DNA from: Candidatus Heimdallarchaeota archaeon
GTDB lineage: Archaea; Asgardarchaeota; Heimdallarchaeia; JABLTI01
Assembly (NCBI GenBank): GCA_030614005.1
Contig: JAUWKS010000001.1
Coordinates: 141,056-173,055, forward strand
Direction of reading: 5' to 3'
DNA: 32,000 nt
The position numbers were made by a program, and so were the translations under genes. The notes beneath the pieces were generated by a model that saw only the letters and a list, made by a program, of their open reading frames with translations, was not told the DNA's origin and made no database searches. This document shows positions 2-25,200 of this stretch, in pieces (position 1 is the first letter of the stretch; each line of letters begins with the position of its first letter).

Positions 2-886
2 ATAAATGTAGGTGGAAGTTTAAACGCTCACAAGGATATTCAATGTGCTGAAGTTTCAGTAGGTGGTTCAATAACCATTGGAGGCAATGCTGCAATTGAA
101 ACAGCAGGTGCTGGTGGAACCATTAAAATTGCAGGCAGTAGCAACATCGGATCGATTAAAGTTGGTGGAAGCGTAACTCTTGAAGGAACAACTGAACTCG
201 ATAGCTTACGAGTTGGTGGAACTGGTAGAGTTAGTGGTGGCAAAATCGGGAAAGTCCGAATTGGTGGTTCATTCAAAGCATCTGAACCAATTGAAGTTGA
301 ATCAATTGATGTAGGTGGCACAACTAAATTAGAAAGTGATGCTAAAGTTGGTGTAGTAAGTGTTGGTGGTACCTTTAAAACAGGCGCAAACCTCGAATTT
401 GACACTATCAACGTAGGTGGAACTGTCTCAATTGGAGGAGATGCCACTGGAAAGAATCTATCTGTTGGTGGAGCTTTGAGCGCATCCGGAAACATGAAAG
501 TAGAAGGCAAAGTTTCTGTTGGTGGCACAATTAAAATTGAAGGTACTATTTTTGCAGATGAAATCTCTGTTGGAGGAACATTCCGCTCACAATTCGCTAA
601 AGCCAAATATTTCAAAATTGGTCGAAGAGGTGATGTCTATGGACCGGTACAAGCTGATAAATTGATTATCTCTGAAAGATCAAATGCAGAAGATCTCTTT
701 GGTGGAGAAATAATCATTGAGGAACGAGCAAGAGTAAGAAATGTATACGGCGAATCAATCTTCATTGAAAATAAAGCAAGAATTTCTGGCGATGTTGAGT
801 ATACTGATGATCTTTCTGTAGAAAGTGGAGCAGAACTCAAGAGAGAACCAAAGAAAGTCAAATCAATTAACTATCCAGATTATTAG
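2..886 (+). CDS. Bactofilin-like / polymer-forming cytoskeletal beta-helix repeat protein (5'-partial, at least 294 aa)
   Basis: The frame is open from nt 2 to TAG at 884-886; the ORF track shows only 476..886. Manual translation gives 12 tandem 16-18 aa repeats with a [VIA]GG[STA] core (INVGGSLNAHKDIQCAE, VSVGGSITIGGNAAIET, ... ISVGGTFRSQFAKAKY), then a bactofilin-like tail (ARISGDVEYTDDLSVESGA). Confidence 0.8.
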   Translation: MNVGGSLNAHKDIQCAEVSVGGSITIGGNAAIETAGAGGTIKIAGSSNIGSIKVGGSVTLEGTTELDSLRVGGTGRVSGGKIGKVRIGGSFKASEPIEVESIDVGGTTKLESDAKVGVVSVGGTFKTGANLEFDTINVGGTVSIGGDATGKNLSVGGALSASGNMKVEGKVSVGGTIKIEGTIFADEISVGGTFRSQFAKAKYFKIGRRGDVYGPVQADKLIISERSNAEDLFGGEIIIEERARVRNVYGESIFIENKARISGDVEYTDDLSVESGAELKREPKKVKSINYPDY

Positions 887-1407: not shown

Positions 1408-3534
1408 TTACTTTATATTCATTTGAGTTAGAAGATCTTTAATCTTGTCTTCTAATTGTGTAGTGAACTCAGAAATAACAATTGGCACTTCCGCCACACG
1501 TTCAGCAATTACATTTGCCCATAATCTGATTTCAGCTGTCGCTTCTGTTGCGATAACTGCTACTAAACCATTTTTGATTGGTTGAACAACAATCCAGAAC
1601 TCATCATAGAGAACTTCTCGCAGTCGCCCTTTGTCTCGTCCTTCAATTATACTCTCAGAAAGATGATTGATAGCAGTAAGTAGTCCTGAGAGAATTAGTT
1701 GATTTGTTTTCACACTATCTCGAAGTTTTGAGAGTATTGGCACTCCACTTTCTGATATAATTAGTAATCCAATAATTTCCGAATCAATTTGTTTCCGGTC
1801 CATTAATTTGAAAGATAGAATTGACTTTAGCTGTGGAGATACATATTTAAAAATACTATTTGTATCAAGAACCAATTGACCTTCGTCTTTTGCCTTATTG
1901 ATTCCTTGTTCAATATTAGTTAGGTCTTGCTTCCAGACATCATAATCAATCTCATTCATTATTTCTTTCGCTTGATCCAAGTCCTCTTGTGCTTTCTCGT
2001 AGAGACCTTTTGCTGCACATAAGATACTACTAATAGTAAGGCCCATAGCTAAAATTTGATTATGTTGATTTTCTTGTGCAAATTTAATGGCTATTTCTAT
2101 GTGATTTAGTGCCATATTCAATGTTGTTGTTTCTGTTTTTAAACGATATTTCTGAAGATAGACTGCAGTAAGCTGAATATTGCTCGAGAGGATTAAACCA
2201 TACTCCTTAGATTGGTTTGCCAATTCTAATGCTTGATGAAAATGCCTAATTGCATTTGAGAAATTTAGATCAAGCAACTCGGAATATCCTAGGAGGTAAG
2301 TTAATTGAGCATTTACTGAAAGAATCTCAAGCTCTTTTGCTAGAGATTGTAATTCACCGAGATATTGTTGAGCTTTGTCAGTTTGTTCAGATCGCAGATA
2401 AAAATGTATTAACTCAAACATTATGAATGCTTTAAACATAGATTTTTCTTTTCGCTGAATTTCATAGGCATGAAGAAAAGACTCCTCTGCTCGGGAGTCA
2501 CCAACGACATAGTAGATATTACCCATCTCTGTTAAATAGAGATATGGCCATTCGCCAGTTGATTCCTTATAGAGTGCGATTGCGCGTTCCATCATTTCTT
2601 TAGCTTTCATAATTTGCCCGGTTTCAAAATAAACTTCGGCAAGATTGCCTATTGCAATTGAAAGGCGATAATTATCATGAACATTATCGTATTCGTTCAT
2701 TAAATCTTCAAAACATTTTATTCCTTCTTCATTTTTACCAAAATAAGATACAATTGCACCTTTCAAATTTAGAAAATCAGTGTACGATTGGTAGATTCTA
2801 TTTTTTAGTACATACGGTTCAACAAAATTCATCATTTCTTCGATATTTGCTTCAACACCTGAGTGGAGCATCCACCAAATGCAATTTGTGGAGGCATCCT
2901 CTAATCCACGACTTTCTATTAAGTTATCAACTTGTGGTAAGCGTGCATTGATGTACTTGTATCCTTCTTTGAGAACTGCTATATTTCCTTGTTGACCATA
3001 AACCCAAGTACGAAGAGCAACCACATAAGCTTTCATTTCTAATGTAAAATCATTTCTTTTCTCAACAACTTGTGCAAGCTGATCCACAGTCTCTCGAGTC
3101 TCTTTATAGTTCGTTGGATTTTCATTGAAATAAGTAAGAAACATATCTATGTAAGGATGATCAATTTGTTTTAGCAGTACCTTATATTTGTCTGTTGCTT
3201 TCATTTTTTGAGTTAAATAACAACTCAGCGAAGCAATTTGAAATGCTATCTGTTTTGTAGCAATCAATTCAGATTCGATAAAAGTAGTTTTCTCTTTAGA
3301 TTTCTTCTTTCCCTTAATCCTTGAAAAGAGTCCTTTACCAGAAACATCTATTTTCATTGTAAGAAGTTTCTCTAGTTCTTGCAGTTCTTTTAATACTTCT
3401 TCTAAAACAACAATGGTACCTTTTTGTAAACGGTCGTTTGGATTTTGATCAGTCTGATGCAAAATAGCAGCTCTTAATCTATCTCTCGTATCCATCGGCA
3501 AACGATTTATGAAAGTCTCAAAGAGCTTCTTCAT
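1408..3534 (-). CDS. TPR-repeat protein with C-terminal longin/roadblock-like domain
   Basis: TPR-like helical repeats (AIGNLAEVYFETGQIMKAKEMMERAIAL; LLGYSELLDLNFSNAIRHFHQALELA). The last ~120 aa (IIGLLIISESGVPI...LILSGLLTAINHLSESI...LREVLYDEFWIVVQP...GLVAVIATE) follow a longin-like beta-beta-alpha-beta-beta-beta-alpha pattern. Confidence 0.75.
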   Translation of the reverse strand: MKKLFETFINRLPMDTRDRLRAAILHQTDQNPNDRLQKGTIVVLEEVLKELQELEKLLTMKIDVSGKGLFSRIKGKKKSKEKTTFIESELIATKQIAFQIASLSCYLTQKMKATDKYKVLLKQIDHPYIDMFLTYFNENPTNYKETRETVDQLAQVVEKRNDFTLEMKAYVVALRTWVYGQQGNIAVLKEGYKYINARLPQVDNLIESRGLEDASTNCIWWMLHSGVEANIEEMMNFVEPYVLKNRIYQSYTDFLNLKGAIVSYFGKNEEGIKCFEDLMNEYDNVHDNYRLSIAIGNLAEVYFETGQIMKAKEMMERAIALYKESTGEWPYLYLTEMGNIYYVVGDSRAEESFLHAYEIQRKEKSMFKAFIMFELIHFYLRSEQTDKAQQYLGELQSLAKELEILSVNAQLTYLLGYSELLDLNFSNAIRHFHQALELANQSKEYGLILSSNIQLTAVYLQKYRLKTETTTLNMALNHIEIAIKFAQENQHNQILAMGLTISSILCAAKGLYEKAQEDLDQAKEIMNEIDYDVWKQDLTNIEQGINKAKDEGQLVLDTNSIFKYVSPQLKSILSFKLMDRKQIDSEIIGLLIISESGVPILSKLRDSVKTNQLILSGLLTAINHLSESIIEGRDKGRLREVLYDEFWIVVQPIKNGLVAVIATEATAEIRLWANVIAERVAEVPIVISEFTTQLEDKIKDLLTQMNIK

Positions 3535-14294: not shown

Positions 14295-16151
14295 TCATTT
14301 CTTTGATAATAAAATTTGGAATAAATCATCAAATTTGCCTAGCTCTTCTTTGAAATTTTCAAAGCTATACTTATCAGTGAAGTTGTCCACAGAACCAGAT
14401 ACGCAAGTTATTTTCTTCTTGGCAATATTTTCTAGATTTAATAATGTATCAGGTAAAACAGTAAATGATTCTCCCAAAAGAACAGGTGAGATGTTTTTCC
14501 CTAAAAGTATTTCAGCATAGTTCTCTATCTCCGGATGATTACCTAATGCCTCTTCTGAAGTATAAAATGATACAATAGCTGTTTTTTCCATTATCTGTTT
14601 GTTGAATTCTAGGAAAACATGACTTATCATATCTGATACTCCTTTTTCAAAAAGATTAGTCATATTGCCATAGGAGATAAAAGAATATTGATTATCCTTT
14701 TGTGAAAGAGTTGCATGTACTTCAGCTAATCTGGTCATACAAAAAAGCTTGCCAATTAAATGACCAAGTATTTTGAAATAATCAAACGAGCGTGATACAT
14801 TTCTTATGGCTTCTTCATAGTTACCTTGCTTTCGGTTAATCTCAGATAATGCACTGTAATATAGGGCATTTAGCTTGGGAGGAACTGGAGCAACCATTTC
14901 CTTTATTCCTCTGTTCAAAAAAAGTTCAGCCCGGGTTATCCTACCAATTAATGCACAGATCCAAGCGCTAAGCAAATTTATTTCAGACATTTTCAATTTA
15001 TTTTTATTTGCTTGGTAAATTTTACTTGCTTTTCTAGCAAACTTAAGTGATCGTAACAAAGAACCTCGATAGTCATCATCTCTGAAAGTATAGGCAGGAT
15101 AAGCCATCATTAGATATAATTCAGATTTTGCATGAGCTAATCTTCCTCTCAGATTAGCAACTGGTTCAGCAAGTGTAAATTCCTCTTCAATAATTCGTTC
15201 AATGTTTTCGTAGATGCCTAATGCCTTGTAAAACCAACCTTGCTGTGAATAAATAAATCCTAAATCGAATAGACCATCTACATGTAATTTTCTCATTAAA
15301 ATTGATTTACGAGTTCCTAAGCGCAGATACTTTATACCACGATTCAAATATTCTTCAGCAAGTGGTAATTTGTTATATGATACAAGATAACGAGCAGAAA
15401 TAAGCAAAATCATTGCCATTAAATTCATAATATCTTTTCTTTTATTTGAAGCAGCAATTTTGATACTTAAATTAAGATAATTCTTTAGATCTTCCAAAGA
15501 AATTTCAGGTGTAGTCTCGAGTTCAAGCAAACTAACAATTTCAAGTAATTCTACATCAATTTGATAATGGTCATTGAAATTATGTTTTGATGCATTATTC
15601 TTAATTACTTCAACGATGTTAAGAGTGTATTTTGGATTGATATTTAACCAAAACCAACCAAAACGAATCAAAACCATGAACAAGGATCTGTTTCCAGTTG
15701 CTTTTTCTTTTGAGGAACTTAACCGTTTAATAGAATCATTAGTAACAATTGTCAGTATTGTACTGTCAGTTATTTTAATGGGATGTAAATTCACTTCTTT
15801 ACAAATTTCAATTATTCGATCTTCTGACGCAGGTTCAAACCTATCAGTACCAATGATAATGAACCTTTGAGCAGAAATTTTCTCATTTATTTCTGAGACA
15901 AAATCTTTTCTAAAAAGAATCTCATTATCAGCTGTTATTTCAAGAGATGAAGCAAAAGTTGCTATCCAACCTTTCTCCTCTGCAATGCGAACATGATAGA
16001 GGATATTTTGTCGACTCATTTCTGTTGGAAAGACTTTTTCCGCTATATATCGAATGTGCTGTGTATTTGCAACACCAAGATATTTGACACAGGTGGCAAT
16101 AAATCTTGACCAGAAAAATTTAGTCCTTGATGCAAATACCATATGTTTCAC
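14295..16151 (-). CDS. TPR-repeat protein of unknown function with N- and C-terminal alpha/beta domains
   Basis: Central helical repeats (LFDLGFIYSQQGWFYKALGIYE; ALSEINRKQGNYEEAIRNVSRS). The terminal domains were not recognised. GTG 16151 or ATG 16142. Confidence 0.65.
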   Translation of the reverse strand: MKHMVFASRTKFFWSRFIATCVKYLGVANTQHIRYIAEKVFPTEMSRQNILYHVRIAEEKGWIATFASSLEITADNEILFRKDFVSEINEKISAQRFIIIGTDRFEPASEDRIIEICKEVNLHPIKITDSTILTIVTNDSIKRLSSSKEKATGNRSLFMVLIRFGWFWLNINPKYTLNIVEVIKNNASKHNFNDHYQIDVELLEIVSLLELETTPEISLEDLKNYLNLSIKIAASNKRKDIMNLMAMILLISARYLVSYNKLPLAEEYLNRGIKYLRLGTRKSILMRKLHVDGLFDLGFIYSQQGWFYKALGIYENIERIIEEEFTLAEPVANLRGRLAHAKSELYLMMAYPAYTFRDDDYRGSLLRSLKFARKASKIYQANKNKLKMSEINLLSAWICALIGRITRAELFLNRGIKEMVAPVPPKLNALYYSALSEINRKQGNYEEAIRNVSRSFDYFKILGHLIGKLFCMTRLAEVHATLSQKDNQYSFISYGNMTNLFEKGVSDMISHVFLEFNKQIMEKTAIVSFYTSEEALGNHPEIENYAEILLGKNISPVLLGESFTVLPDTLLNLENIAKKKITCVSGSVDNFTDKYSFENFKEELGKFDDLFQILLSKK

Positions 16152-16264: not shown

Positions 16265-19200
16265 TCATTTAGGAATGTAACACACAGCAGCAACAAAGTC
16301 GTTATTTTGTGATAACTGAGCTTTTAGCTGTATACCAGACTTACTCTTAGCAAATTGTTTGGTTATTTTATTTGCTTCAGCGGGCAATTTAGTAGGATCA
16401 ACTTGAACGGTAATACTTTTGTTTTGTAATTCAACGACCTCTAAATCGTGAAGATCAATATTCAACCCGATACCCAAAACTTTTGAGGCTGCTTCTTTCG
16501 CAGCCCAAATTCTAGTAAGAAAGTCATCAGCAACATCTTTATTCTGAATTTTAAGAAATGATTGCTCTTGTGGACCTAACAATTCATCAGTGAGTGAGCT
16601 ATCTCTTGGCTCGATTATTTCCAAATCAATACCAATATTGAATGTTGAGCTAACTAATGCAACAGCATAACCATTGCTATGAGTTATCGAAACAAAGGTT
16701 TTCTTCTTACCTTTGTTTGTGACTGCGATTGGTTTTCCAAGATTACTTTTCTCAATCAAAATATCTTTATTTTCCAGTTTTGGCATGAGATTTCGGAGTG
16801 CCGTTTTTGCTGCAATCACTCCTGCTAACCATTCGGTTTTGCGTTTCTCAACTTTTATGGAATGATATTTTTCAAGCTCATCTGTTTGTAGATTGCTCGT
16901 TAAGTATTCAGAGTCGGATTTCAATTGCTCGTTGATCTGCTTTACACTAACTGCTTCAAGTGAAGAATCTTTAGGAACAGTAAATAATTGCTTTACTTGT
17001 TTCAATCGAATATTCTCAACAATTTCAAGACTTGCTGCTAAAGGTATTTTTACTGTGTTGTAATCTTCTGCTTTAAGGATTACTTCTCCAGTTTTTGTCA
17101 GCACCTCAAAATCATAAGTAGATCCAAAATCATTTTCACCTTTCTTGACACCACGTATTATTTCAGGTTCTCCAGCAACATCAAAGTAAGTAAGTTGTTT
17201 GACAGAATAAGGAAGACCAAGTCGGTCATCTTTTATTATATCTAAAAGACCCATCGCTTGGAATGCTGCTTCAATTGCTAATGGATTAGCAATTAATTCT
17301 TTAATATCCCAACTAAACTGATTATTTATTGGGATAGAACCAGCACCAATGATTTCTTTGTCAATGGTATTTATTGAGTGAAGTACTTGGAATAATGAAC
17401 CATGTGGAAGAATCTTATAGATGTCTCCTTTATTGATTAATTGTTTCTTGGTTAATTTTACCATTGATTTTTCCGCAACTTTTCGTGGACCAAAGACAAC
17501 AGTACCTTTGAAATGAAGTTTAGTATCACCTAGTTTCTTTCCATCTTTTATGAAATCAGATTCAATACGAACTTCTGGTGTTTTGCCATAAGATATTCGA
17601 GCTTTAAGTGCTCGTGGGTTATCTTTGAGAAATTTGATTGCAGAGTTGAACTCAATATTGTCAAAACCACTTAGCACTTTCTTTGGATAAGCAAGCTTTG
17701 CTAATTCGGCAAACAATTCTATACCCATTACTCCAGGTAGAAATGGAACAGCATCAAATCGATGGTGATTTAGATAGAGGTCAGTTGTAAGTGAGAAATC
17801 TCGTTCTGTTGAAATAGATCCGTCGAAGTTTCGTTTAATACTACCAATCATTGGATATACTTTGTGATCAACAAGAACTGCCGGTAATGGTGATTCTAGT
17901 AGAACACCTAATTTTCCAGCGATAACAACCTCAGCATCTTGTCCGGATTCAAGTTCATTGATGAAGGCATTTATTCCCTCATTCACTTGAATTGGGGTAA
18001 CTCCGGCATATTCCAGAATAGTCATTATTGAACCTCTGGTTGCCATTCCCACATCTGCCCAAGCAGACCAACAGATAGAAGTTGCACGAATGCCTTTTGC
18101 TCTTAAATTCCAGCAACTCTTTGAGAGATAATCATTCGCTGCAGAATAATCTACTTGTCCGCCATTTCCATATCGTCCGGCAACAGAAGAGAAACATATG
18201 ATGAATTGAATTTTCTTCAAATCAATATTGTTGATTAAATTATCATATCCAATTGCTTTAACGTCATAGACTCGATTAAAATCAACAAGCTCTTTATCAG
18301 CAATGAATTTAGATACTTCCAATCCAGCACCGTGAACAATACCTGTTATTGAGGTTTTGAAGTCTGAAACAACTTTTAGTAAAGTTTTTTCCATTTTCTC
18401 AGTATTAACAACATCTACAGAATAATACTTCGTTTTTGAACCCAAGGAAACAAGTTCTTGTACTCCTTTCTGGATGGCAATAGCTTTAGCTGTTTTTGAC
18501 CAAGCTTTCTCGATTTTAACTGGAGTAACTTTATCATCTGTTTCTTTCATTTTGGCAATCATAGTGTTTTTGAGTTCAGTTAAACCAGCTTCATCAAGTG
18601 CAAGTAGTTCTTTAATATTCTTTGGAATTTTCGTTCGACCAAATAATGCCAATTGTGCTTGATATTTTTCGGCAATTTTCTTAGTGATTTCAAAGGTTAT
18701 TCCTTGAGCACCACCAGTAATGACTATTAAATCATCTTTAGTTGGTTCGTATTTCTCTGATGCTTCTACCAATTCCTCAACAGTTGTAATGAAGATTTGA
18801 CGTTTTCCAGCAGAATTGTATACTACTTCTACTGAACCATCTCCAGAGCATAATTCATCAATCGCTAGTTTTGGCTTTTGACAGCTAACAAATTTAACAG
18901 TACCACCAACAAACTCTCGAGCAAGTGCTTTCGTAAAACCTGTCAAAGAGCCAACAATTGGATTGGCTTTTGCTTGCTTCCAACCAAGATTTTCAAATTG
19001 GTTATCTATAGCTAAAACAATTGGTTTCTTACTAAAGAACAAATACCGACTGCAAACGAAAAAGCTTCGAGCAACGAAATCGTGTTTAGTTTTATCATTT
19101 GTTTTTGGAGCGATGAAAACCATACCATCAACTTGCTGTTCTGGCAATGCTGCTTGAAGCTTATCAAGTGATTTCATTGACTTGAGATGGATTGTTTTCA

Positions 19201-22200
19201 CAACTTGAGCTTTTTTCTTCTCCAAAATTGCTACAATTTCATTAGTAAATTGGTTATTATCTCCAATAACAATAAATCGCTTTTGTTTGAGATCCAAACC
19301 CTTAGTTTTAATTTGAGAAGGAATCAATTGCAATAACATTCTTTTTGCAGGAACTTTTTCGATTGGCTTCTTTGCTGCTTGACCAGCAACGTGAGCTGAT
19401 TTTTCTCCAGAGCCAATTCGTTCAGAAACATAATGAGCAATCTTAGTAATCGTTGAATAATCTTGAATACGAATTCCTTCTTCTCGAGGCAAATCGAATT
19501 TTGATCGAAGAATACCAAAAATTTCTGCCTGTTTAACAGTATCAATACCAAGGTCTTCTTCAAGTTCCATATCTGCTTCCAACATGTCTGTTGGATAACC
19601 AGTTTTTTCTGAAACAAGATCAATAATTGTTTTAGAAATCTCACTAATAGAAATTGAAGATGTTCCAGTTGCGGCAGTAACTCCTACAGGTGTAGAACCT
19701 ACACCGCCCATTTTTGTTGCAAGATATTCAGCAATTTTATTTACAGAATAATAATCTTGAATTCTAACTCCTTCCTCTCGAGGCAAATTATACTGTGAAC
19801 GCAACATTCCAAATAGTTCTGCTTGTTTAACAGTATCAATACCAAGATCTTCCTCAAGATGCATATCTGCTTCAATCATATCTGCGGGGTAACCTGTCTT
19901 TTCGGAAAGCAAGGAGATAATCATAGTAACAATTTCACTATTAGATGCAGAAACAACAGATGATTTTGGAGCAGTGGTTTGTTTTAAAGCTTTAATTACA
20001 TTGGGGTCTTCAGTCATTCTCAAGGTATTATTAACAATCTCCATAGTTGAGCGACTGCCACCAATAGTTGCTAACCATTGATCATAATCCTTACTGTCAA
20101 ATCGTTCACTAGCTGTATTCAAACGATACAAAACCATAGCTAATTGTGAGCCAAAACCTGCTGAAAAGCGCATAGCATATTTAATATCATATTTTCCACC
20201 CTTAGAAAGATTGAGCACGCCCAATTCAGGGTCTACTTCTTTGAAATTTGCTACTGGAGGAATAATTCCTTTTTGGAGCATCTTAACTGCAACAACATCC
20301 TCAATTCCAGCTCCCATCGCATGACCTGTAAATCCTTTTGTGTTAGCAATAACGACTTTATCTAACGAAGCACCAAAAGTTTTTCGCAGAGCGTCTATTT
20401 CTGCAGAAGCACTGCCACCTCGAGCTGGCGTATAGGTTTCATGACTAACAAAAACTAATTGTTTCGCAATATCATCTCGAGAGATATTGTACTTCTTCTC
20501 AATTTTTGTCATGAAATTATTCATTTGAGATGAAATGTGTTCACGATCTAGTCGCGTTCCATGGAATGCTGAATTTACGAGATGCGTACCCATCAAATCA
20601 ACAATTGGTTTTACTCCTCTTTCATTCATTGCAGATTCTGATTCCAAAACAATGCCAACCGCTCCCATACCAACGATCATTCCGTGTCTTCTGTTATCGA
20701 AAGGCAAAGCAGCTTCTTCCACTATTTCAGAAGTTGTTGCTGCTCCAACTGCTAGGAATCCCGCTCCAAACCACTGGAACGTTTCATCACTTGTTATATC
20801 ATCTGCGGCTATTACAATTACTCTTTTGCACCGACCATTTCGAATCCAATCTTCAGCGATACCAATAGCTAGTGTAGTTGAAGAGCAAGCAGCGTTTACT
20901 TGTGTATTTGGTCCTCGTGCGCGAATAAATTGAGCAAATTGAGAATGGCCCATTGAAAGAACTTCGAATAAGAACTTACGACTGAAAATGTATTTCGAGT
21001 TTTTATCACCATCAAGTGCGACTTTATTCTTTTCAAACCATATCTTCACTTTTTCTCTGGAAGCTTTATTTGAGATTTGTTGAATTAATTCATCAAAAAG
21101 TAGAATAGTTTCTTCCTTGTGCTTTGATGCATATTTATCTGCTAGAGATTGAGAAACAATTGAAATTAGATTGTTACTTACAGGAAAAGCAGAAGCGAAA
21201 ATAATGCCGGTCTCATCTCTCATTGACTCTGGTAATACCCAACCTTTTGAGATTTCTTTTCCAACAGATGTTTTAATTTTCAAGGGCATTAAAGGAATAC
21301 CAGCATCTCTAAGTGCTTCAATTCCTGCTGCTAATGCTAATTGAAATGTTATATCAAAAATTTCAGTAAATTCGGCTTGCACGCCATAGTCTTTTGTAAG
21401 ATCAAACTCTCCTTTTTGAGCTGCAAGTTTAATGACTTCACTTACATCAGTTATCGATTGGAATTGTGCCCCTTTAACAGCATCTTTCACTAATCGGACA
21501 ATATTCTTTTCAACGATCTTTTCTCTCAGCTGAGAGGAAGTTTTTTCTATGAAATTCATACCGGAAAGAATTGCATCGAAATTAGAATCATCGAATACCT
21601 TACGATTTTTACCAGGTAACCCGATTGCTATACCAGTTACTCCTACGGCATCTGTATTAATATTCAGTCTGTCTATTTCTTTTTTAGTCTCTAATGCCTT
21701 TGCGATTATATTCTGGTATGTATCATAACCTACTTTAAGAAATGCATTGATAGCTGGCGCTTGTAATTTTAAGTACTCACTAAAGTCATCATTTTTAGTT
21801 ATCGTTGCTAAATCACCAAAAGCTAACACATCAAATGGAGATTCTTTTGTAATGACTTTAGTCTTACCGATAGAAGGAGCAATTGATGTAATTGGTACTG
21901 CTTTCTTTTTGTAGAATCTCTTTGTCGGATTTCTAAACTCTTCACTATAGATCGAATCATCTTTGTTAGGAATTTTTAAAGGATAACCAAAAGCACCGAG
22001 AGCAGCAAGCACTTCATTGAGATGTTGCATAGCTCCTCTCTTGGGATGGTTTGATGCTAGAGCAACAAAATCTTTCTTACCTTCAAGAATAGATTTAGCA
22101 AAACTTGTTAGAACATATTTGGGACCAATTTCAATGAATGTCCGTACTCCGTATTCCTCATACATATTTTTAATCTGCTTCATCCATTCGACAGGAGAAT

Positions 22201-25200
22201 AAACTTGTTTACAGAGTAGATCAATAATTTCTTGCCTTGTTTTTGGATAAATTCCTCCAGTTACATTGCTCGAAAGAGCAATTGTAGGTTTGCTATATGT
22301 AAGCTTCTCTAGTGATTCTCTTAGGAATTTCTCAGCAGGAGCAACAATTTCTGAATGAAATGCTGCAGAAACGGGTAAAGGAATTGCGGTTATGCCTTTT
22401 TCAATGAATATCTTGATTGCTTCAGTTATTGCAGGAGATGCTCCTGAGATTACAGTTTGACTTGGAGTGTTTTTATTTGCAGCTATTGCATAACCTTTGA
22501 CCTTTTTCAAAACGTCATCAACTGTTTGAGGACCCGCACTTACTGAAGCCATCATACCATTATCATCAGAATCAAAAAGAGACATCGCTTTGCCTCTAGG
22601 GATAACAGCCATTAAGCCATCTTTGAAGCTAACAATTCCAGATGCCACAAGTGCAGCATATTCACCTAGACTATGACCTGCAACAAAATCTGGTTTTATA
22701 CCAAACGAACGCAATAATCGATATATTCCAATATTGACAGCAAATATTGCTGGTTGAGTCACTTCAGTTTTTCTCAATAATGCTTTTGACTCGGCATCAT
22801 CTTTTCCTATAGCAAAGATTATTTCTGTTAGGGAAAATCCAAGCTCAGCTTGAGTTACTTCATCAGCTTCTTTGAAAACTTCTTTTACAATATCATACTT
22901 GTCCCAGAGCTCTTTACCCATACGAACGTATTGGCTACCTTGTCCTGGAAACATAAAAGCGATTTTTCCGAGTGTATGATCTTCACCATAGAATATTCCT
23001 TTATTTCTTAGTATCAATCTCTTAGCTTTATCTTGTTGTCCAGATATTGCTGAATCAATTAAAGAGGGTAAATCATCCAGTGATTTAGATACAATACCTA
23101 TTCGTTTCTTCTGAGAGAGAGCACCCATTGTTTCTTGACTAATATCATGTATACGACTTCCTGTTCCATTCTTATCAAAAGTACTCTTTGGTATTTTTGT
23201 TTTGAATGCTTCCAAATTTTTAAGTAAAGCAACATCAGAAGCACCTCCAATAAAGAGGGGTTCAGTTTCTAATACAATATTTTTATCGTAATAATCCTTC
23301 CAAGAGGATTCATCAAAAACAGTGGTAAAACCTTGTGCATCAGCTGATTGAGAAGTCATTTGACTGATACGTCTAGTTAATGATTCTAATTCTTCTTTTG
23401 ATAATAATTTTGGCAAATGGCCAATAGTTTCTCCAGGAATATATTCTTCCATAATAGCATGATAATTTGTTCCACCAAAACCAAAAGAAGAAATTCCTGC
23501 GATTCGATGTCCAGATGTTGGTTGAGGCCAATCCTTTGTTTCTGTAATAACATAAAATGGGGAAGTATCCCAAGCAACTTTTGGATTTGGTATTTCAAAA
23601 TTGGCTGTTGGGGTGAATTTCTTATGATAAATTGCAAGTGCAGTTTTGATTATCGAGGCAATACCAGCAGCACTTTTTAGATGACCAATTTGACTTTTAA
23701 CGGAGCTGATGACTATTGATGCTTTCGGAGAATTTTCTGCCATCTCATTCAAAACAGCCATTTCAACTACATCACCTACACCAGTAGCAGTTCCATGAGC
23801 TTCTAAAAATTGTATATCAGAGAAGGATACACCCGCTTGATCAAATGCTCTTTGAATTGCTAATTGTTGTCCAATGGGGTTTGGTGCAGTAATGCCTTTA
23901 CCTTTTCCATCACTAGCAGCACCTAATCCTCTAATAACAGCATAAATTCTATCACCATCTCTTTCTGCATCAGAAAGACGTTTAAGAACAACAAAACCTG
24001 ATCCTTCACCCATAACAAAGCCATTTGCCCTTGCATCAAATGGATATGAACCTTCAGCAGAAATCGCACCAATTTTGGCAAATTTAACAAAAATGGATGG
24101 GTCTAATGAACAATCTGATCCTCCACAAAGAACCGTATCATATTCATTATCTAGTAATCCTTTAACTGAAACACTCAAAGCAGCTAAACTTGATGCACAT
24201 GCAGCATCACAAGTCATATTCTTGCCGCGAAGATTAAAAACATTAGCAATTCGTCCAGCAATAACATTAGATAATTCTCCTGGCATCGAATCTTCATTTA
24301 TTGCCATTAATTCCTTATCATAAATTGTTTTTAATTCTTCTTTGACTTTCCTCCAAACATCTTCCTTAATATCACTGAAAGAAGCGCATTTTTCGAAAGA
24401 TCGATATGACTCTGCTAGAAAGATTCTTCGATTGTAATCGACTCGAATTGAACCACCCATACTATTTCCAACGATAGTTGCAGTTCGAGAATTATCTTTA
24501 TCCAAAATATTAGCATCAATTAGTGCTTCTCTAGCAGCTACTAAAGCAAATTGTTGAACGCGATCAATCTTCTGAGCAACTTTTGGAGGAATTTTAAATT
24601 CCAATGAGTTAAATTTGAAATCATCAATTGTTGCAGCAATTTTTGCGTAAGTTTTATCGGGTTCAAAAGGGTCAGGAGAATAATAGAGACTATGGTCATT
24701 AGACCATCTTTCTTTTGGTATTTCTTTTATTGAATAAACTCCAGAAATGATATTTTGCCAATATTGGTCAATGTTCAATGCATCTGGAAAAACTCCACCC
24801 AAACCAATAATTGCAACACCTTCACCTTGAAGAATATCATCGGGTATTGGAGTCAATTCTTGAACAATTTGAGGTTCTACTGCTTTGCTAAATTCTTCTT
24901 TTGATTCGAATTGTTCAGCAAAACTTTTTGCTTTGGTACTAACAACTTTTTTTGACTCTTCGATTAATTCCATATGAAGATCCTTAACAGTACGAATGCT
25001 TCGCAAACTACCAACAATTTGGCCAATCATATAATTTCCTTTTTCATATTGACCCTTCTCATCAATTGGCATAAACCTATTTGGTTTATCGTCTTCCCCA
25101 TCTGGGTTCCAAATTTCTCCTAATGCAGCAATACGTGTAGATCCTAGATTGTCTCTTTCGAATTGGTGTTTACGATCTTTAAGGCTCATACCTTCCTTTA

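What the first reader, a model, noticed from the sequence alone, without database searches (positions are those of the whole stretch)
19424..19933. Both ACP domains carry threonine instead of serine at the phosphopantetheine site
Seen: both ACPs read LGID-T-VKQAE, with codon ACT at 19832-19834 and 19538-19540. Ser is not one sequencing slip away in both copies, and synonymous differences around the sites show two independent copies. Established: PPTases attach 4'-phosphopantetheine to the Ser of the (D/H)S motif. Inference: either Thr-linked phosphopantetheinylation by the fused, possibly specialised PPTase, or ACP-like domains that work unmodified (e.g. CoA-based). I recall a similar GIDTVKQAE motif in uncharacterised bacterial PKS-like proteins but cannot verify this here.
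Basis: partly seen in the sequence, partly recalled or inferred. Interest (0 to 1): 0.85.

Follow-up and report, generated by a model that had tools for sequence, protein, structure and literature searches.

The report
Carrier domains with threonine attachment site
Both acyl-carrier domains of a giant archaeal fatty-acid/polyketide synthase have threonine where studied carrier proteins have the cofactor-bearing serine; about 96% of its large enzyme family shares this, which points to an undescribed threonine-linked cofactor attachment.

Summary
Both ACP domains of a 3576-aa synthase (window 16265-26995, minus strand) read EDLGIDTVKQAE. Thr2388 and Thr2486 (both ACT) sit where carrier proteins have the phosphopantetheine-bearing Ser. 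Independently assembled metagenome contigs show the same codons.

It is a family trait, not decay. Relatives were chosen by their second ketosynthase domain, blind to the site. Of 130 such proteins, 125 are Thr-only, 4 Ser-only and 1 mixed, and no well-formed copy has another residue. The Ser cases are single tips inside Thr clades, so Thr and Ser interchange. 106 of 607 family ACP cores contain no serine at all.

A related Sfp-type PPTase is fused or lies within 10 kb in 66 of 79 loci. In this archaeal genome the fused PPTase is the only PPTase, and the two Thr-ACPs are the only carrier domains.

The best reading (about 0.68) is that the fused PPTase attaches 4'-phosphopantetheine to the threonine hydroxyl. 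This is inferred, not shown: E. coli ACP S36T cannot be modified (PMC3340395).

I found no paper describing the trait. This scan has already reported it on at least eight other genomes. New here are the Ser/Thr interchange, the mixed arrays and the genome-level exclusivity.

The parts
16265..26995 (-). Single 3576-aa open reading frame (P0001). Domain order: ER-ER-KS-AT-KS2-ACP-ACP-KR-DH-PPTase, an iterative type I FAS/PKS-like 'secondary lipid' synthase.
   Evidence: ORF list, translation, Pfam domains. Best NCBIfam match is PfaA TIGR02813 at 943 bits, below its 1010 cut-off.
19691..19960 (-). ACP domain 1 (aa 2346-2435). Motif EDLGIDTVKQAE, with Thr2388 at the phosphopantetheine position.
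   Evidence: PP-binding match over cut-off. Model with helix II starting at the Thr. ACP fold matches.
19832..19834 (-). Codon ACT for Thr2388.
   Evidence: The same letters are in contigs of runs X1 and X8.
19397..19666 (-). ACP domain 2 (aa 2444-2533). Motif EDLGIDTVKQAE, with Thr2486 at the phosphopantetheine position.
   Evidence: PP-binding match over cut-off.
19538..19540 (-). Codon ACT for Thr2486.
   Evidence: The same letters are in contigs of runs X1, X3 and X6, from three studies.
16265..16978 (-). C-terminal Sfp-type PPTase domain (aa 3340-3576). Carries ITHS (His3439), GIDLE (Asp3457, Glu3459) and WAAKEAASK (Glu3501, Lys3505).
   Evidence: Pfam ACPS 53.9 bits against a cut-off of 25. 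Aligns to Sfp residues 44-187. Motifs conserved across 78 family PPTases. It is the only PPTase in the genome.
26051..26959 (-). Enoyl reductase-like NMO/FabK-type domain 1 (aa about 13-315).
   Evidence: Pfam NMO with 3 matched stretches. FabK TIGR03151 match. Boundaries are approximate.
24956..26008 (-). Enoyl reductase-like NMO/FabK-type domain 2 (aa about 330-680).
   Evidence: Pfam NMO best stretch 461-680. TIGR03151 match at 329-598.
23426..24823 (-). Ketosynthase 1 (aa 725-1190).
   Evidence: Pfam ketoacyl-synt, Ketoacyl-synt_C and KAsynt_C_assoc.
22076..22963 (-). Acyltransferase domain, malonyl-CoA:ACP transacylase-like (aa 1345-1640).
   Evidence: Pfam Acyl_transf_1. FabD TIGR00128 at 238 bits.
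20123..21649 (-). Second ketosynthase-like domain (aa about 1783-2291). It occupies the position called CLF in Type R clusters but keeps the NAACSS cysteine.
   Evidence: Second ketoacyl-synt stretch, sequence read. Used as the site-blind family query.
18053..18724 (-). Ketoreductase domain (aa 2758-2981).
   Evidence: Pfam KR at 107 bits.
17006..17827 (-). PKS-type dehydratase region (aa about 3057-3330).
   Evidence: Pfam PKS_DH_N at 19 bits, below its cut-off. Relatives carry PF21089 and PF14765. Boundaries are approximate.
27057..28655 (-). Acyl-CoA carboxylase carboxyltransferase, directly upstream on the same strand.
   Evidence: Pfam Carboxyl_trans, E 1.7e-192.
28828..30312 (+). Biotin carboxylase, divergent from the synthase operon.
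   Evidence: Pfam CPSase_L_D2, Biotin_carb_N and Biotin_carb_C.
30267..30803 (+). Biotin carboxyl carrier protein.
   Evidence: Pfam Biotin_lipoyl.
30820..31581 (+). Alpha/beta hydrolase. It may be a chain-releasing thioesterase; that role is inferred.
   Evidence: Pfam Hydrolase_4, Abhydrolase_1 and BAAT_C.

Best explanation
The two domains are working acyl carrier domains of a self-contained, iterative type I fatty-acid/polyketide-like synthase. The synthase belongs to a family related to PfaA and to the 'Type R' secondary-lipid synthases. In this family the 4'-phosphopantetheine arm is attached, from CoA, to the hydroxyl of a threonine (here Thr2388 and Thr2486) rather than a serine. The attaching enzyme would be the Sfp-type PPTase that the family always carries, here fused at the C-terminus. 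It would use the usual Mg2+/Glu-assisted attack of the side-chain hydroxyl on the CoA pyrophosphate. The holo-ACPs would then shuttle malonyl and growing acyl thioesters between AT, KS, KR, DH and ER, with malonyl-CoA coming from the acyl-CoA carboxylase genes next door. Shown here: the Thr, its structural position, its family-wide fixation, the Ser/Thr interchange, the PPTase linkage and the genome-level exclusivity. Inferred: that the Thr is actually modified, and why Thr is preferred. Possible reasons are insulation from housekeeping AcpS and ACP hydrolase, or a phosphodiester more resistant to beta-elimination.
For: (1) Position. The Thr aligns to the DS serine of solved ACPs and is the first residue of helix II in a confident model.
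(2) Only hydroxyl residues at the site. In 623 ACP copies of the 120 best relatives the site is Thr 619 and Ser 4, nothing else. A site-blind sample was taken by KS2 domain from 1.84 billion representatives. It gave 125 Thr-only, 4 Ser-only and 1 mixed protein among 130 with well-formed ACPs.
(3) Interchange. On a KS2 tree each Ser or mixed protein is a single tip inside a well-supported Thr clade, which needs at least 5 changes. P0132 is S-T-S. Four Thermoplasmatota-type proteins are S-T-T-T-T(-T).
(4) One PPTase family serves all of them. It is fused in all-Ser P0144 and in mixed P0132, and lies immediately downstream of all-Ser P0222.
(5) No alternative serine. No other Ser is conserved in the domain, and 106 of 607 unique ACP cores have no Ser at all.
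(6) PPTase linkage. A related PPTase is fused or within 10 kb in 66 of 79 named-genome loci; 12 of the 13 without one are cut contigs. Its catalytic His/Asp/Glu/Glu/Lys motifs are conserved.
(7) Exclusivity. In this genome (90% complete) the fused domain is the only PPTase and the two Thr-ACPs are the only PP-binding domains. The same holds in a Thermoplasmata MAG and a Heimdallarchaeota MAG. The PPTase therefore has no other possible substrate.
(8) Selection. All four Thr codons are used across the family. Orthologues of 3574-3612 aa without stops occur in same-genus and same-family genomes.
(9) A complex model of PPTase domain, CoA, Mg and ACP1 scored 0.85 against a best control of 0.29. That mark was reached by 51 of 78 solved complexes and 2 of 108 mismatched pairs in calibration, which holds only roughly here because small molecules rode along. 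Runs agreed in at least 98% of contacts and partner pLDDT was at least 83. Thr2388 touches Glu3501, the Sfp Glu151 equivalent. Solved PPTase-carrier complexes exist, so this pass may reflect likeness only.
(10) Malonyl-CoA supply genes are adjacent.
Against: I found no biochemical precedent: six full-text searches for the motif or for Thr-linked phosphopantetheine returned nothing relevant. In the best-studied system a Ser-to-Thr change abolishes modification: E. coli ACP S36T 'cannot be post-translationally modified by 4'-PP' and does not complement (PMC3340395). A secondary alcohol is a poorer and bulkier nucleophile (general chemistry). I found no clear active-site change in the family PPTases that would explain Thr acceptance. 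No member of the family has a known product or a demonstrated activity.
Confidence: 0.68

Rival explanations
1. The Thr-ACPs stay unmodified (apo). They would act as scaffolds or docking domains, while the synthase works on CoA- or otherwise-tethered substrates. The PPTase-like domain would have another role or none.
For: E. coli ACP S36T is not a PPTase substrate. There is no published Thr-linked phosphopantetheine. No product is known for the family.
Against: The domain is among the most conserved parts of the protein, with invariant DLG-DT-VKQ-E. It is multiplied to 4-8 tandem copies in relatives, which in PUFA synthases raises throughput through holo-ACPs (stated in PMC3098273). The site tolerates only Thr or Ser. 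A PPTase with intact catalytic residues is kept fused or adjacent. In this genome that PPTase has no other conceivable substrate.
Confidence: 0.12
2. The threonine carries a different group than plain 4'-phosphopantetheine. Examples would be a whole dephospho-CoA-type prosthetic group as in citrate lyase and malonate decarboxylase ACPs, or direct O-acylation.
For: Nothing here identifies the chemistry of the adduct. The hydroxyl requirement (Thr or Ser only) fits any O-linked group.
Against: The linked enzyme is a standard Sfp-type PPTase with the Mg2+ and Glu motifs, not a CitX/MdcG-type transferase. Ser-type members with the same PPTase look like ordinary carrier systems. An oxoester would be a poor substrate for Claisen condensation (general chemistry).
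Confidence: 0.08
3. Phosphopantetheine is attached to another residue of the domain, either another Ser or one of the conserved Thr22/Thr72 positions. The helix-II Thr would then be only structural.
For: Two other Thr positions are about 98% conserved: EKTGYP, and the residue before helix IV.
Against: No other Ser is conserved, and 106 of 607 ACP cores have no Ser. The window's ACP1 has Ser, not Thr, at position 72. The TGY motif also occurs in the Ser-type PigH ACPs. The helix-II Thr is the residue placed against the catalytic Glu3501 in the complex model (with its caveats). Only this position switches between Thr and Ser in the way an acceptor would.
Confidence: 0.05
4. Sequencing or assembly error, or a decaying pseudogene.
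For: ACT is one substitution from the Ser codons TCT and AGT.
Against: Independent contigs from other runs and studies carry the same codons. Both copies show the Thr. It is family-wide with all four Thr codons. The 3576-aa frame is intact and is conserved in related genomes.
Confidence: 0.01

Closest known systems
'Type R' secondary-lipid synthase gene cluster (Shulse & Allen 2011, PLoS One 6:e20146, PMC3098273)
   Same: A PfaA homologue with KS-MAT-CLF-ACP(3-6)-KR plus a dedicated PPTase gene, spread across Acidobacteria, Elusimicrobia and Chloroflexi. My homologue lists cover the same taxa. The product is unknown there as well.
   Different: The paper does not contain the word threonine. 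The window's protein has two N-terminal enoyl-reductase domains, only 2 ACPs, a DH region and the PPTase fused in one chain. Its second KS keeps the active-site cysteine. The host is an archaeon.
Tandem ACP domains of PUFA synthase PfaA with PPTase PfaE (TIGR02813 family)
   Same: PfaA is the best NCBIfam match (943 bits). Both have tandem ACPs after KS-AT, a shared EKTGYP...DLGID core, and a dedicated Sfp-type PPTase.
   Different: The score is below the family cut-off of 1010. PfaA ACPs have Ser at the site (LGIDSIKRVE; this is from my own knowledge and was not tested here), where this family has DTVKQAE. There are no separate PfaB, PfaC or PfaD partners here.
Sfp-type PPTase acting on a carrier protein (Sfp-PCP complex 4MRT; AcpS-ACP 1F80)
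   Same: The fused domain aligns to Sfp residues 44-187 with the His, Asp/Glu and Glu/Lys motifs. The predicted docking places the ACP helix-II N-terminus against the catalytic Glu.
   Different: The acceptor would be Thr. E. coli ACP S36T is not modified in its native system (PMC3340395). The family PPTases form their own related group: they score 77-126 bits with the family HMM, against 76 or less for other PPTases of the same genomes.

Membership tests
Carrier protein / PP-binding (PF00550) | Sequence match to the family model above its curated cut-off | tested here: met
   Whole-protein score 36.4 bits against a cut-off of 20.8. Each domain scores 24.5-24.6 bits in the genome search.
Carrier protein / PP-binding (PF00550) | Small helical ACP fold with the attachment residue at the N-terminus of helix II | tested here: met
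   Model with pLDDT 84 and helices 7-22, 43-56 and 73-83; the Thr is residue 43. Foldseek top hits are all ACPs, with target TM-scores of about 0.8-0.87.
Carrier protein / PP-binding (PF00550) | Conserved serine of the (D/H)S motif as phosphopantetheine acceptor | tested here: not met
   Thr2388 and Thr2486 occupy the position.
Carrier protein / PP-binding (PF00550) | Post-translational 4'-phosphopantetheinylation | not testable with these tools
   Needs mass spectrometry of the expressed domains.
PfaA, polyketide-type PUFA synthase (TIGR02813) | Score above the curated cut-off | tested here: not met
   943.1 bits against a cut-off of 1010.1.
PfaA, polyketide-type PUFA synthase (TIGR02813) | KS-AT-tandem ACP-KR(-DH) order | tested here: met
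   Domains found by Pfam, but with an extra ER-ER at the N-terminus, a second KS before the ACPs and a fused PPTase.
Type R secondary-lipid synthase (Shulse & Allen 2011) | PfaA homologue with KS-MAT-CLF-ACP(3-6)-KR | tested here: inconclusive
   KS-AT-KS2-ACP-KR order is present. There are only 2 ACPs, KS2 keeps its cysteine, and ER, DH and PPTase are fused on. Homologues cover the Type R taxa.
Type R secondary-lipid synthase (Shulse & Allen 2011) | Dedicated PPTase encoded with the synthase | tested here: met
   Fused here. Fused or within 10 kb downstream in 66 of 79 loci.
Sfp-type (group II) PPTase | ACPS domain above cut-off, two-lobed architecture, and the catalytic His, Asp-x-Glu and Glu...Lys motifs | tested here: met
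   PF01648 at 53.9 bits against a cut-off of 25; the N-lobe model 4PPT_N scores 21, below its cut-off of 27. Aligns to Sfp residues 44-187. ITHS, GIDLE and WAAKEAASK are present.

The most novel reading that the evidence does not exclude
O-phosphopantetheinyl-threonine is a natural post-translational modification. It would be made by a distinct clade of Sfp-type PPTases that accept both Thr and Ser, and it would be the normal state of the carrier domains in a very large, cross-domain family of lipid/polyketide synthases. In some archaea these would be the only carrier proteins present. If so, the 'invariant serine' rule for carrier proteins has a widespread natural exception. It would also offer a ready-made orthogonal PPTase/acceptor pair.
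Probability: 0.62. Interest if true: 0.85.

Novelty: new variant of a known kind. Interest (0 to 1): 0.8.

Why it matters
Carrier proteins of fatty-acid, polyketide and non-ribosomal peptide synthesis are taught and annotated as needing a conserved serine. Motif rules and mutagenesis controls such as S-to-T assume this. A family with hundreds of 50%-identity clusters, present in at least ten phyla of bacteria and archaea, uses threonine instead. That implies either a new linkage or a new way of using carrier domains.

If the linkage is real, it has four consequences. Carrier-domain prediction rules would have to change. A PPTase clade with altered acceptor specificity would become available as an orthogonal labelling pair. 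The reason evolution fixed Thr becomes a testable question, with cross-talk and stability as candidate answers. And archaeal genomes that lack any other ACP or PPTase would still be running ACP-dependent acyl-chain synthesis, which bears on the debate about fatty acids in Asgard-related archaea.

Tried and rejected
Literature: full-text searches returned nothing relevant. They covered 'GIDTVKQAE', 'DTVKQ', 'threonine instead of serine' with phosphopantetheine, 'replaced by threonine' with phosphopantetheine, 'tandem ACP' with threonine and PUFA synthase, and Heimdallarchae* with polyketide synthase and ACP. The library does not hold most subscription-journal papers, so this is not proof that nothing is published.

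Bias check: the genome-contig scan used a pattern that contains DT, so its all-Thr count cannot measure frequency. I replaced it with the site-blind KS2 search.

PPTase specialisation: I aligned 78 family PPTases and looked for an active-site change that would explain Thr acceptance. There is a conserved Glu-x-Arg after the GxDxE motif, and the group scores as related, but nothing can be interpreted without a structure.

Some HMM hits with other letters at the site (Q, L, P, I, D, G, E) are partial or degenerate segments without the G-x-D-x-V-K context. I excluded them from the counts and did not study them.

Organism: no 16S rRNA was found in the MAG. It is archaeal by ribosomal protein L21e, and the closest named homologue is from a Heimdallarchaeota MAG at 38% identity. 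I did not establish the lineage further.

Expression: no RNA holder was listed for the gene.

Raw reads were not available. Only Logan contigs were laid.
Full report
**What is there**

The region lies inside one 10.7-kb open reading frame on the minus strand (16265-26995, 3576 aa). Pfam and NCBIfam give the domain order: two NMO/FabK-type enoyl reductases, KS, AT, a second KS-like domain, two PP-binding (ACP) domains, KR, a PKS-type DH region and a C-terminal PPTase. The best family model is PfaA (TIGR02813) at 943 bits, below its cut-off of 1010.

Both ACPs read EDLGIDTVKQAE. Thr2388 is codon ACT at 19832-19834 and Thr2486 is codon ACT at 19538-19540. The two domains are 62% identical and differ at neighbouring synonymous sites.

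**Is the Thr really at the attachment position, and is it real DNA?**

- phmmer against all PDB chains aligns the Thr with the DS serine of the PigH ACP doublet and of ordinary ACPs.
- An AlphaFold model of ACP1 (pLDDT 84) has helices at 7-22, 43-56 and 73-83, and the Thr is residue 43, the first residue of helix II.
- The model's best structural matches are all acyl carrier proteins.
- Contigs assembled independently from other public runs (marine sediment and cold seep metagenomes) match without differences at the sites. X6 and X3, from two further studies, cover the ACP2 codon. X8 and X1 cover the ACP1 codon. These are contigs, not raw reads.

**Family-wide pattern**

A search with the ACP region found 2283 proteins at E <= 0.001. 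In the best 120, the 623 ACP copies (2-8 per protein) have Thr 619 times and Ser 4 times at the site, and nothing else. The surrounding DLG-x-D-T-V-K-Q-x-E is essentially invariant.

A scan of one genome per species found at least 594 matching stretches. The taxa include Thermoplasmata, Heimdallarchaeota, Elusimicrobiota, Chloroflexota, Acidobacteriota, Spirochaetota, Myxococcota, Actinomycetota, Bacillota, Gemmatimonadota and Thermodesulfobacteriota. All four Thr codons are in use: ACG 131, ACC 110, ACA 14, ACT 14.

That scan used a pattern containing DT, so it cannot measure how often Thr occurs. I therefore ran a site-blind test. phmmer with the second KS domain alone, against 1.84 billion representatives, gave 594 clusters at E <= 1e-30. 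Among the best 150, 130 have well-formed ACPs: 125 are Thr-only, 4 are Ser-only (P0144 with six copies, P0222 with two, P0224, P0229) and one is mixed S-T-S (P0132).

**Thr and Ser interchange**

On a maximum-likelihood tree of the KS2 domain, each Ser-only or mixed protein is a single tip inside a well-supported Thr clade, which needs at least five changes. Four Thermoplasmatota-type proteins have Ser in the first ACP and Thr in the other four or five.

All-Ser P0144 and mixed P0132 carry a fused PPTase of the same family. All-Ser P0222 has the PPTase gene immediately downstream. So the site accepts only the two hydroxyl amino acids, they replace each other over evolutionary time, and both occur in one polypeptide next to a single PPTase. 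This is what an acceptor residue would look like. Earlier notes of this scan called the Thr invariant; it is more exactly about 96% Thr, with Ser as the only alternative.

**No other acceptor**

No other Ser is conserved in the domain. 106 of 607 unique family ACP cores contain no serine at all.

Two other Thr positions are conserved: EKTGYP and the residue before helix IV. The TGY motif also occurs in the Ser-type PigH ACPs. The window's ACP1 has Ser at the second of these positions.

**The PPTase**

- The fused domain aligns to Sfp residues 44-187 and keeps ITHS, GIDLE and WAAKEAASK.
- A PPTase recognised by an HMM of the fused domains is fused or within 10 kb in 66 of 79 named loci. Twelve of the 13 without one are contigs cut inside or just after the synthase.
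- In genomes that have several PPTases, the cluster-linked one scores 77-126 bits with that HMM, and the others score 76 or less.
- Ectobacillus funiculus and an Austwickia MAG have only an AcpS-like enzyme plus the cluster PPTase.
- In the window's own genome (3.6 Mb, 90% complete, archaeal by ribosomal protein L21e) the fused domain is the only PPTase, and the two Thr-ACPs are the only PP-binding domains.
- The same holds in a Thermoplasmata MAG and a Heimdallarchaeota MAG.

A catalytically intact PPTase kept in these genomes therefore has nothing to act on except Thr-ACPs.

The synthase occurs in 8 of the 10 other same-genus genomes searched, and in several other families of the class. Where the frame is complete in the same genus and family, it is 3574-3612 aa without stops.

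**Docking model**

A complex model of the PPTase domain, CoA, Mg and ACP1 scored 0.85 against a best control of 0.29. In calibration that mark was reached by 51 of 78 solved complexes and 2 of 108 mismatched pairs. The calibration holds only roughly here, because small molecules rode along. The three runs agreed in at least 98% of contacts, and partner pLDDT was at least 83.

Thr2388 touches Glu3501, the equivalent of Sfp Glu151, and Glu3459 of GIDLE is in the interface. PPTase-carrier complexes have been solved, so this pass may show likeness rather than independent evidence.

**Context**

Directly upstream lies an acyl-CoA carboxylase carboxyltransferase. Divergently transcribed from it are a biotin carboxylase, a BCCP and an alpha/beta hydrolase. 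This fits a malonyl-CoA-consuming synthase with a possible release enzyme.

**What argues against**

E. coli ACP S36T cannot be phosphopantetheinylated and is non-functional (PMC3340395). I found no paper reporting a Thr-linked arm or this motif. The Shulse & Allen paper that defined the closest cluster type does not contain the word threonine. No family member has a known product. I could not point to a PPTase residue that explains Thr acceptance.

**Verdict**

The trait is a hallmark of a very large, uncharacterised family.

| Reading | Confidence |
|---|---|
| Natural O-phosphopantetheinyl-threonine installed by the family's own Sfp-type PPTase | about 0.68 |
| Unmodified domains | 0.12 |
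| A different O-linked group | 0.08 |
| Another attachment residue | 0.05 |
| Error or decay | 0.01 |

It is a new variant of a known kind of system (carrier protein plus PPTase), not a new kind. This scan has reported the same trait on at least eight other genomes. The present work adds the site-blind frequency, the repeated Ser/Thr interchange and mixed arrays, the shared PPTase family, and the genome-level exclusivity in this archaeon.

Noticed in passing
window 27057-31581: A full acyl-CoA carboxylase set (carboxyltransferase, biotin carboxylase, BCCP) and an alpha/beta hydrolase flank the synthase in an archaeal genome. This suggests a dedicated malonyl-CoA supply and a possible release enzyme.
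   Followed up: partly
window 16265-26995: A public gene call for this same ORF is only 2106 aa (P0040, 100% identical over the ACP region). Some annotations therefore start the gene far downstream and miss the ER-ER-KS part.
   Followed up: no
window 20123-21649: The second KS-like domain sits where Type R clusters have a 'CLF', but it keeps an active-site-like cysteine (NAACSS) and both histidines. It may be a second true ketosynthase.
   Followed up: no
L104:888-5016: The locus of the all-Ser relative P0144 has an Arf/Ras/Roc small GTPase and a MalT-like TPR protein next to the synthase. The window also has TPR/MalT-like proteins on either side (1408-3534 and 14295-16151). This may be a conserved Asgard-type neighbourhood.
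   Followed up: no
P0265, P0134, P0136, P0139 (relatives): Some relatives contain ACP-like segments with a wrecked motif among intact Thr-ACPs, for example DLGIDPDKQAA and DLGVKDADLQG. These may be decayed repeat copies or HMM artefacts.
   Followed up: no
L041 (uncultured Acidobacteriaceae MAG): This is the only locus with full 10-kb flanks in which no PPTase was found. Its synthase is split over several overlapping frames, which may reflect assembly frameshifts.
   Followed up: no
window 19433: The contig of run X1 reads T where the window has A. It is the only difference in 801 bases and lies near the end of ACP2.
   Followed up: no
window 2-886: An open-ended ORF with a bactofilin domain in an archaeal genome.
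   Followed up: no
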